Shown here: piece by piece, positions 24,991 to 25,890 of the stretch
Numbering within the stretch: position 1 is the first letter of the stretch
Layout: each line of letters starts with the position of its first letter
Source: the human T2T-CHM13v2.0 reference genome, Homo sapiens
Length of the DNA stretch: 64,000 nucleotides
Strand: one strand, 5' to 3'
NCBI RefSeq assembly: GCF_009914755.1
Contig: NC_060935.1
Program-made: the position numbers and the translations under genes
Notes under the pieces: model-generated
Told to the model about the DNA's origin: nothing
Seen by the model: the letters and a program-made list of their open reading frames with translations, nothing else
Databases searched by the model: none

Positions 24991-25283
24991 TCTTTAATGT
25001 ATTATGAAAAATTTCCCCCAAAATAAAAAAATCCATAAATTGATTATAGCAATTATTTAGCTTTAATTATTGTCAATTCATGTCCAATCTTGTTTTATCT
25101 ACACCCTTCCCTACCCCCATTATTTTGAAGGACTTTCCCTGATTGTTTCATAAATTTCTCTTTTTTTCGTTTGTTTGCATCAGGATCCAAACAAACTCCA
25201 TGTGTTACAACTGGTTGATTTATCTCTTAAGTCTCTGTCTATAGGTTTTCAGCCATCTATTCTTTTCCCTGCTTATACATTAC

Positions 25284-25442
25284 TTTTTTTTTTTCTGAGA
25301 ATGCTTCCGTCTAGTTTTTTTTTATTTATTTTTTATTTTTAAATTTATTATTATTATACTTTAAGTTTTAGGGTACATGTGCACAATGTGCAGGTTAGTT
25401 ACATATGTATACATGTGTCATGCTGGTGCGCTGCACCCATTG
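25284..25442 (-). mobile_element. Severely 5'-truncated young L1 (L1PA2/PA3-like) with 3' transduced tag
   Basis: ttatactttaagttttagggtacatgtgcacaatgtgcaggttagttacatatg; 12-bp TSD tacattactttt (25276-87 and 25443-54); TTTT/AA endonuclease site. Confidence 0.93.
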
Positions 25443-25890
25443 TACATTACTTTTAAAGAGATTGGGTTGTTTGTCCTGCAGAGTTTCCTGCAATCCAGGT
25501 TATTGATTGCAGCCTTCTGGTGTGGTTTAACATGTTCTTCTATGTCTTATATTTCCTGTAAACTTGTAATTTATTCTAGAGGCTCAATCCAATTCAGAGT
25601 TAATTTTTTTTGCAAGACTGCTTTATAGATGGTACTGTGTACTTTCACAAGTCTTTGTATTGTTAGCAGCCTTTGATGCTCATTTCCTACATTCATCATC
25701 TCACTAGAGTTTGCAAACTGATGATATTCTATCATTGCTTCCTTACTTTTAACAGGAATACTTCAATAAAAAGAAACTTCCTCTCATCAACTATTTGGTT
25801 ACCCAAAAGGACAGGATAAATGTTTGATTTTTTCATTTTATTTGCCAGATTTCCAAAGAATGAGTTGGTTCCTTAGAATCTTCCAGAGGC

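What the first reader, a model, noticed from the sequence alone, without database searches (positions are those of the whole stretch)
25276..25454. Tiny young L1 carrying an alpha-satellite 3' transduction: footprint of a (peri)centromeric source element
Seen, in L1 sense (minus strand): ~90 bp of L1PA2/3-like 3' end, then an A-rich tail, then CTAGACGGAAGCATTCTCAG (25314-25295), then a second poly(A). All of it lies within a 12-bp TSD at a TTTT/AA site. Known: two tails flanking non-L1 DNA is the hallmark of 3' transduction, and AAAACTAGAC(A/G)GAAGCATTCTCAGAAA matches the alpha-satellite monomer as I recall it. Inference: the parent L1 sat in an alphoid array, inserted at the monomer's A-run. 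It read through and was polyadenylated ~20 nt later, exporting centromeric DNA to a euchromatic arm. This implies germline retrotransposition from a centromere-embedded L1.
Basis: partly seen in the sequence, partly recalled or inferred. Interest (0 to 1): 0.8.

Follow-up and report, generated by a model that had tools for sequence, protein, structure and literature searches.

The report
Tiny L1 carrying an alpha-satellite tag
A 155-bp stub of an L1 retrotransposon upstream of TENM4 carries about 20 bases of centromeric alpha-satellite DNA behind its own tail, which shows that its parent L1 sat inside an alpha-satellite array and copied a scrap of it to a chromosome arm.

Summary
On the minus strand, 25274-25454 holds one retrotransposition event. 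It lies between two copies of a target-site duplication (12/12, or 13/14) at a TTTT/AA nick site. Its parts are 105 nt of L1 3' end, a 21-nt degenerate A/T tail, the 20-mer at 25295-25314, and a short A run.

The 20-mer is alpha satellite. It occurs 4701 times exactly in the window's own genome, against 0 for the reversed control. All 100 listed places lie at chr1-chr4 centromeric coordinates, spaced by repeating intervals.

In the same genome, 10 L1 3' ends abut this same monomer A-run inside alphoid arrays. Two of them are independent full-length L1s at chr1:126.77-126.78 Mb, and their flank differs from the tag at one base.

The last AATAAA of the inherited tail ends 25 nt before the cleavage site. 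In embedded copies a GT-rich stretch follows that site, which explains why the tag is so short.

An L1 3' transduction of alphoid DNA is therefore well supported (about 0.85). The exact source was not found: no L1 flanked by the G variant exists in this assembly, and no sibling copy carries the tag. "Young L1PA2/3" is not established, and the source was more likely in pericentromeric monomeric alphoid than in a centromere core.

The mechanism is known and the cargo is unusual. Interest is modest.

The parts
25441..25454 (-). 5' copy of the target-site duplication (14 nt; the perfect 12 nt are 25443-25454). The L1 endonuclease site TTTT/AA on the plus strand lies at 25451-25456.
25336..25440 (-). 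Severely 5'-truncated L1 3' UTR end: 88 nt up to AAAGTATAAT plus a 17-nt L1 terminus, AATAATAAATTTAAAAA.
   Evidence: Its last 41 nt before the terminus occur exactly 4975 times in the genome. The TTT-containing terminus is an L1 3'-end form seen 1339 times.
25315..25335 (-). Inherited, degenerate A/T tail of the source L1 (21 nt with three T interruptions). It contains the last AATAAA hexamers.
   Evidence: The last AATAAA ends 25 nt before the inferred cleavage site.
25295..25314 (-). Transduced alpha-satellite tag (20 nt). The flanking A's make up to 28 nt compatible with a monomer.
   Evidence: There are 4701 exact genomic copies in alphoid arrays. BLAST with a chr3 monomer aligns 23 nt here and nothing else in 3 kb.
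25288..25294 (-). New poly(A) added after cleavage in the alphoid (7 A; up to 3 could be alphoid-templated).
25274..25287 (-). 3' copy of the target-site duplication (14 nt with one C/T difference; the perfect 12 nt are 25276-25287).

Best explanation
This is a single L1 target-primed reverse transcription event. An L1 sat inside alpha-satellite DNA, inserted at the A5 run that precedes CTAGAC in the monomer, and it was transcribed.

Its own genomic tail was short (about 21 nt) and degenerate, and it contained AATAAA hexamers. Cleavage and polyadenylation therefore fell about 19-20 nt into the flanking monomer, after ...CTCA/G. In the arrays that position is followed by a GT-rich stretch (...CTTCTTTGTGATGTGTG...) that could act as a downstream element.

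The resulting RNA was L1, then the old tail, then 20 nt of alphoid, then a new poly(A). It was reverse transcribed at a TTTT/AA nick on chr11 about 10 kb upstream of the TENM4 start. Reverse transcription aborted after about 150 nt, leaving a 105-nt L1 stub and a 12-14 bp TSD.

Shown here: the anatomy, the alphoid identity of the tag, and the existence of L1s at that exact monomer site. Inferred: the read-through, the role of AATAAA plus the GT-rich stretch, and the location of the lost source.
For: 1. Everything lies between TSD copies at a TTTT/AAAG target.
2. The 20-mer occurs 4701 times exactly in the genome, against 0 for the reversed control. All 100 listed places are at chr1 126.6-126.8, chr2 92.3-95.1, chr3 90.6-91.7 and chr4 49.7-49.9 Mb, spaced by repeating intervals. 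In its normal alphoid context as a 31-mer, the G variant occurs 846 times, at pericentromeric coordinates of most chromosomes.
3. A census searched for an L1 3' anchor, then 0-90 nt, then CTAGACNGAAGC. It gave 19 hits: 3 chance non-L1 hits, 15 L1s embedded in alphoid that continues at least 1.2 kb downstream, and the window. The window is the only hit with just a 23-nt alphoid match.
4. Ten of the 15 embedded L1s abut the same A-run in the same orientation. Four of these 10 (chr1a, chr17b, chr3, chr20) match the 23-nt tag with one mismatch.
5. chr1a is 6.03 kb with TSD AAAAACTAGACA. chr1b has a full-length 5' end and a 16-bp TSD.
6. The last AATAAA ends 25 nt upstream of the cleavage site. A GT-rich sequence follows that site in embedded copies.
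Against: No L1 in this assembly has the G variant in its flank. All 10 L1s at this site have A at tag position 7. In chr1a and chr1b both TSD copies have A, so A was there at insertion.

No sibling dispersed copy carries the tag. The 20-mer plus A8 hit the window only. The 20-mer plus A5 gave 30 hits, 29 of them at pericentromeric coordinates. The alternative cleavage variant gave 4 hits, all pericentromeric.

The new poly(A) is only 7 A, of which 3 could be alphoid-templated. Priming on the monomer's own AAA in a longer read-through RNA is therefore not excluded.

Presence or absence in other primates was not testable.
Confidence: 0.85

Rival explanations
1. Template-switch chimera. Reverse transcription began on a polyadenylated alpha-satellite transcript and jumped after about 20 nt onto the poly(A) tail of an L1 RNA. 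This would give the same order of parts without any L1 ever residing in alphoid.
For: Everything lies within one TSD pair, which a one-step chimera also predicts. The A-run of the monomer could offer microhomology to an L1 poly(A).
Against: The junction falls exactly at the monomer site where 10 real L1 insertions sit in arrays. A jump need not land there. The internal tail carries three T interruptions in 21 nt while the terminal A run is pure, as expected for a genomically encoded old tail. The described L1 chimeras, as I recall them, have the foreign RNA 5' of the L1 part, not 3'.
Confidence: 0.05
2. Two-step origin. An ordinary short L1 insertion with a long A-rich tail later captured a 20-nt alphoid fragment as filler DNA during repair of a break in the tail.
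For: A-rich tails are fragile, and short filler insertions are known in general (established knowledge, not tested here).
Against: The fragment is bounded on both sides by the A-runs that bound it in the monomer: A5 before CTAGAC and AAA after CAG. That fits transcription out of an L1 inserted at that A-run and cleavage at CA. Filler DNA should have arbitrary ends.
Confidence: 0.04
3. True 3' transduction, but the source L1 lay next to a dispersed, non-centromeric alpha-satellite fragment on a chromosome arm.
For: Dispersed euchromatic alpha repeats exist, and several are listed as adjacent to L1PA elements (PMC7719264, table passages).
Against: Of the 17 L1-alphoid junctions found in the sense orientation, none lies outside pericentromeric coordinates, as I recall them for this assembly. 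The G-variant 31-mer places listed are all pericentromeric (100 of 846 listed).
Confidence: 0.05
4. Chance resemblance: the 20-mer is not alphoid-derived.
For: None.
Against: There are 4701 exact genomic copies against 0 for the control. 0 of 100 shuffles of the window gave a match at up to 3 mismatches.
Confidence: 0.01

Closest known systems
L1 3' transduction (Moran 1999; Goodier 2000; Pickeral 2000; cited from the reference list seen and from recall)
   Same: L1 3' end, old tail, non-L1 flank and new poly(A), all inside one TSD pair at a TTTT/AA site.
   Different: The cargo is satellite DNA and only about 20 nt long. Pipelines whose passages I read drop such events. One reclassifies partnered transductions within 30 bp as solo L1 (bioRxiv 10.64898/2026.05.28.728591). 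Another requires at least 25 unmasked bases (PMC13103737).
Full-length 'ghost' L1s in centromeric satellites (xTea paper, PMC8219666, passages)
   Same: That paper reports full-length L1s flanked by alpha satellite (114 in 18 groups in a CHM13 assembly) and suggests they may be sources of active L1s. chr1a and chr1b here are of this kind.
   Different: The passages I read give no offspring. The window element is a candidate offspring footprint.
Dispersed euchromatic alpha-satellite repeats (Feliciello et al. 2020, PMC7719264, passages)
   Same: Alphoid DNA found on a chromosome arm.
   Different: Those repeats are at least 0.3 monomer long. The authors found no indication that retrotransposons spread them and favoured extrachromosomal circles. 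Here the fragment is 0.12 monomer, and its anatomy points to L1.
Proposed satellite dispersal by LINE-1 transduction (review, PMC6947457, passages)
   Same: The same mechanism, drawn as a hypothesis in that review's figure 4B.
   Different: The review passage gives no human alpha-satellite case. This would be a concrete one.

Membership tests
L1 insertion by target-primed reverse transcription | Sequence identity to the L1 3' UTR end | tested here: met
   The 41-mer ending in AAAGTATAAT is shared exactly with 4975 genomic places. The 88-nt body differs from the closest of the sampled copies by about 1-2 bases (that 92-nt query included 4 TSD bases).
L1 insertion by target-primed reverse transcription | Target-site duplication and TTTT/AA nick site | tested here: met
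   TSD is 12/12, or 13/14. The plus strand reads CATTACTTTT/AAAGAG.
L1 insertion by target-primed reverse transcription | 3' poly(A) abutting the TSD | tested here: met
   A7, or an 11-A run counting the TSD's A4. It is short.
L1 3' transduction | Non-L1 DNA between an internal A-rich tail and a terminal poly(A), inside one TSD pair | tested here: met
L1 3' transduction | Transduced DNA matches the 3' flank of a source L1 | tested here: inconclusive
   Four L1s at the same alphoid site match 22 of 23 nt. None matches 23 of 23, and none has the G variant.
L1 3' transduction | Poly(A) signal upstream of the new cleavage site | tested here: met
   AATAAA hexamers end 25, 29, 36 and 48 nt before the site.
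Alpha satellite (ALR/Alpha) | Sequence match to monomers | tested here: met
   4701 exact 20-mers in arrays. A chr3 monomer gives a 23-nt BLAST hit.
Alpha satellite (ALR/Alpha) | Tandem ~171-bp organisation at this locus | tested here: not met
   Only one 23-nt hit in 3 kb around the element. It is a fragment, not a satellite array.
   No Dfam or RepeatMasker library is available here. Only relative types could be counted: CACATTG type 4975 versus CACAATG type 3060 exact 41-mers.

The most novel reading that the evidence does not exclude
The chr1:126.77-126.78 Mb monomeric alphoid block may have hosted a germline-active L1 lineage. It inserted twice at the same monomer position 1.7 kb apart (chr1a and chr1b, each with its own TSD), and it may have exported the chr11 copy.

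The alphoid monomer may also complete a composite poly(A) site: L1 AATAAA, then a CA about 25 nt downstream, then a GT-rich stretch. If so, any L1 at this monomer site stamps its offspring with the same ~20-nt alphoid 'barcode'. Standard transduction pipelines discard a tag like that. Re-scanning population and tumour call sets for it would measure retrotransposition out of satellite DNA directly.
Probability: 0.3. Interest if true: 0.5.

Novelty: new member of a known kind. Interest (0 to 1): 0.3.

Why it matters
Full-length L1s inside centromeric satellites have been proposed as an unexplored source of active L1s (PMC8219666, passages). One study of dispersed alpha repeats found no role for retrotransposons in spreading them (PMC7719264, passages).

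This element is a concrete sequence-level footprint of both processes. An L1 embedded in alphoid DNA was transcribed and retrotransposed in the germline, and it carried satellite DNA to a chromosome arm.

The event is small and appears to be rare. It is the only one found in this genome with the anchors used. Its value is as a proof of principle, and as a reminder that short or repeat-masked transductions are filtered out of standard analyses.

I saw nothing that suggests a function at the TENM4 locus.

Tried and rejected
1. **Source search by tail signature.** A 32-nt tail pattern at up to 3 mismatches gave 43 hits against 39 for the reversed control. That is noise.

2. **TTT motif as a private marker.** I first took the 'AATTTAAAAA' shared by the window tail and the chr1 L1 tails as a private link. 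One search shows it is a common L1 3' terminus, with 1339 places. It is found in about 4 of the first 100 listed places of both the CACATTG and the CACAATG types (lists compared by eye). It is only weak evidence for chr1.

3. **chr1a and chr1b as duplicates of one insertion.** Rejected. Their L1 parts are 93.6% identical but their flanks only 82.9%, which is the level between unrelated monomers. Their TSDs also differ, 12 versus 16 bp.

4. **Dating from a MAFFT alignment.** I aligned 44 L1 3' segments and computed pairwise distances. Many copies were truncated and the distances were unusable. No age is claimed from it.

5. **Further census offsets and the antisense site.** Searches found only pericentromeric L1-alphoid junctions or chance hits, and no second exported copy.

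6. **Other steps that failed.** The earlier-findings tool was not open. The body of chr1b was therefore not read.

7. **Literature.** Searches listed no paper that reports an L1 transduction of human alpha satellite. Subscription papers and the T2T repeat paper were not among the hits and were not read.

Full report
**What is there**

Read on the minus strand, the region holds these parts in order:

| Part | Window coordinates | Sequence or size |
|---|---|---|
| 5' TSD copy | 25441-25454 | AAAAGTAATGTACA |
| L1 3' end | 25336-25440 | 105 nt |
| Degenerate A/T tail | 25315-25335 | TAAAAAATAAATAAAAAAAAA, 21 nt |
| 20-mer | 25295-25314 | CTAGACGGAAGCATTCTCAG |
| Terminal A run | 25288-25294 | seven A |
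| 3' TSD copy | 25274-25287 | AAAAGTAATGTATA |

The duplication is perfect over 12 nt, or 13 of 14 with one C/T transition. On the plus strand the target reads CATTACTTTT/AAAGAG, a canonical L1 endonuclease site.

The one correction concerns the 'second poly(A)'. It is only an 11-A run. Four of its A's belong to the duplication, and up to three could be templated by the satellite.

**Is the 20-mer alpha satellite?**

Yes.

- It occurs exactly 4701 times in the window's own genome (T2T-CHM13 according to the hub note), against 0 for the reversed control.
- The 100 listed places are 8 on chr1 (126.6-126.8 Mb), 9 on chr2 (92.3-95.1 Mb), 2 on chr3 and 81 on chr4 (49.7-49.9 Mb). They are spaced by repeating intervals of a higher-order repeat.
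- In the 64-kb window it matches once even at 3 mismatches, and none of 100 shuffles produced a match.
- Placed in its usual monomer context as a 31-mer, the G variant occurs 846 times. The listed places lie at what I recall as the pericentromeric coordinates of most chromosomes, including chr11 itself (100 of 846 listed).
- A BLAST of a real chr3 monomer against 3 kb around the element aligns 23 nt and nothing else.

The locus therefore holds a fragment of a monomer, not an array.

**Do L1s really sit at that point of the monomer?**

I searched the genome for the L1 3' anchor AAAGTATAAT, then 0-90 nt, then CTAGACNGAAGC. Of 19 hits:

- 3 are chance matches without L1 (chr2:102.3, chr9:110.6 and chr7:103.5 Mb).
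- 15 are L1s whose downstream flank continues as alphoid for at least 1.2 kb.
- One is the window.

Ten of the 15 have their tail abutting the same A-run before CTAGAC, in the same orientation. They are chr1 at 126,773,439 and 126,781,127, chr12, chr16, two on chr17, chr3, chr14, chr20 and chr22. The other five are inserted at an A-run about 15-22 nt upstream in the monomer.

Larger offsets added little. Two more L1s in alphoid turned up (chr10:39.38 and chr16:35.69 Mb). Two L1 tails abut a mutated form of the same site (chr14:10.08 and chr22:12.77 Mb, identical strings). The rest were re-hits or chance anchors.

The antisense A-run gave three L1s, all pericentromeric.

In every search the window was the only place on a chromosome arm where an L1 tail is followed by alphoid sequence.

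**The embedded L1s**

- **chr1a** is 6.03 kb. It has a recognisable L1 5' end, is flanked by AAAAACTAGACA on both sides, and sits among monomers only 74-88% identical to each other. Its reading frames are now broken, and the longest ORF is 275 aa.
- **chr1b** lies 1.7 kb of alphoid further on. It also has a full-length 5' end, but with a 16-bp duplication.
- The two L1s are 93.6% identical over their last 1.5 kb. Their flanks are 82.9% identical, which is no better than out-of-register monomers. They are therefore independent insertions at the same monomer position.
- **chr3** is 5.4 kb and 5'-truncated. **chr20** is an ~85-bp stub inside alphoid.

**Why the tag is 20 nt**

The inherited tail contains four AATAAA hexamers. 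The last one ends 25 nt before ...CTCA/G, where the tag stops. That spacing is within the usual range for cleavage after a poly(A) signal, by established knowledge.

In the embedded copies the monomer continues after that point with AAACTTCTTTGTGATGTGTG or close variants. This is a GT-rich stretch of the sort that serves as a downstream element.

I infer that an L1 with a short tail at this monomer site acquires a composite poly(A) site whose cleavage falls about 20 nt into the satellite. This step is an inference and was not tested.

**The source**

No L1 in this assembly has the G variant in its flank.

- All ten L1s at the site have A at tag position 7.
- A7 plus the G 20-mer finds only the window.
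- Twelve A/T bases plus the G 20-mer finds the window and three mutated monomers.

Four of the ten L1s at this site match 22 of 23 nt of the tag (chr1a, chr17b, chr3, chr20). chr1b matches 21 of 23 ungapped, and 19 of 20 over the 20-mer itself.

Only chr1a and chr1b share the window's TTT-type L1 terminus. That terminus is a common L1 form, with 1339 places. It is present in about 4 of the first 100 listed places of each of the two 41-mer types, judged by comparing the lists by eye. Sharing it is therefore weak evidence.

Both duplication copies of chr1a and chr1b have A at the variable position. If either were the parent, an A-to-G change in the chr11 copy would be required. G-variant monomers are plentiful.

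The simpler reading is a parent at a G-variant monomer that has since been lost, is polymorphic, or is mutated beyond my anchors. I put the chr1 pair at roughly 25-30% as the source lineage.

**Siblings**

None were found.

- The tag plus A8 hits only the window.
- The tag plus A5 gives 30 hits. Twenty-nine are at pericentromeric coordinates, many spaced by higher-order-repeat intervals on chr2.
- The variant cleaved one base earlier gives 4 hits, all pericentromeric.

Pericentromeric status in these lists rests on my recollection of centromere coordinates in this assembly. I did not inspect each place.

**Age and subfamily**

Only 105 nt of L1 are present. The body carries CACATTG where other copies have CACAATG. 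The first type has 4975 exact 41-mers in the genome and the second 3060.

By recollection the youngest human L1s are of the second type. I could not name the subfamily, because no curated repeat library is available here.

Against the sampled copies, the body shows one private substitution and a one-base shorter A run in the terminus (that 92-nt query included four duplication bases).

An attempt to date by pairwise distances failed because many sampled copies were truncated. No ape genome was available, so the empty-site test was not run.

**Rivals**

- **Template switch.** A jump from a polyadenylated alphoid RNA to an L1 RNA would also give a one-step composite. It does not predict a junction exactly at the monomer site that real L1 insertions use. 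It also does not predict an internal tail with T interruptions next to a pure terminal A run.
- **Later capture as filler DNA.** This does not predict that both ends of the fragment coincide with the monomer's own A-runs.
- **A source beside a solitary monomer on a chromosome arm.** Not excluded, but none of the 17 sense-oriented L1-alphoid junctions found is of that kind.

**What is in print**

From passages I read:

- A review proposes satellite dispersal by LINE-1 transduction as a hypothesis (PMC6947457).
- The xTea paper reports full-length L1s in centromeric satellites and suggests they may be sources (PMC8219666).
- A study of dispersed alpha repeats found no indication of a role for retrotransposons, although its table lists several repeats adjacent to L1PA elements (PMC7719264).
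- Another study reports enrichment of polymorphic L1 insertions near centromeres (PMC8934628).
- Two pipelines discard transductions within 30 bp of the source boundary or with fewer than 25 unmasked bases.

Seven searches listed no report of an L1 transduction of human alpha satellite. Subscription papers, and T2T repeat papers not returned by these searches, were not read. Supplements were not consulted.

**Verdict**

It is a known mechanism with an unusual and very short cargo. In this genome it is apparently unique, with no identified parent and no siblings. I see no sign of a function at the locus. Interest is modest.

Noticed in passing
L035 (G000 chr1:126,765,500-126,775,400) and L039 (chr1:126,779,627-126,782,673): Two independent full-length L1s with the same uncommon TTT-type 3' terminus sit at the same position of two alphoid monomers 1.7 kb apart, in the same orientation. 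Their TSDs differ (12 versus 16 bp). The L1 parts are 93.6% identical and the flanks 82.9%. This could reflect local re-insertion of one lineage.
   Followed up: partly
L038-L054 and the places listed: The A5 run before CTAGAC in the alphoid monomer is a recurrent L1 target. Ten L1 tails abut it, plus two at a mutated form of the site (chr14:10,075,145 and chr22:12,772,920).
   Followed up: partly
L050 (chr13:17,544,977) and L053 (chr21:11,341,385); also chr14:10,075,145 and chr22:12,772,920: The L1-alphoid junctions are nearly identical between different acrocentric chromosomes. L050 and L053 are 2.5% apart over 900 nt, and the chr14 and chr22 matched strings are identical. This is consistent with exchange between acrocentric pericentromeres.
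   Followed up: no
L091 (chr1:126,801,750-126,802,150): A third TTT-type L1 3' end lies about 21 kb from chr1b, inserted antisense into the alphoid. Its tail abuts the reverse complement of the same tag region.
   Followed up: partly
L037/L052 (chr20:30,650,965): An ~85-nt L1 stub with a long (AAAT)n/(AAT)n tail sits inside alphoid at the same A-run, with a short duplication. It is an array-embedded counterpart of the window's tiny element.
   Followed up: partly
PMC7719264, table 1 (passages): Several dispersed euchromatic alpha repeats are listed as adjacent to L1PA elements. One lies between an L1PA8A and a simple repeat and has an A-rich 10-bp duplication. These might be unrecognised L1 transductions.
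   Followed up: no
chr21:11,112,073-11,171,242: Six regularly spaced alphoid monomers contain the string AAAGTATAAT by chance. Any L1-anchor screen in satellites has to exclude them.
   Followed up: no
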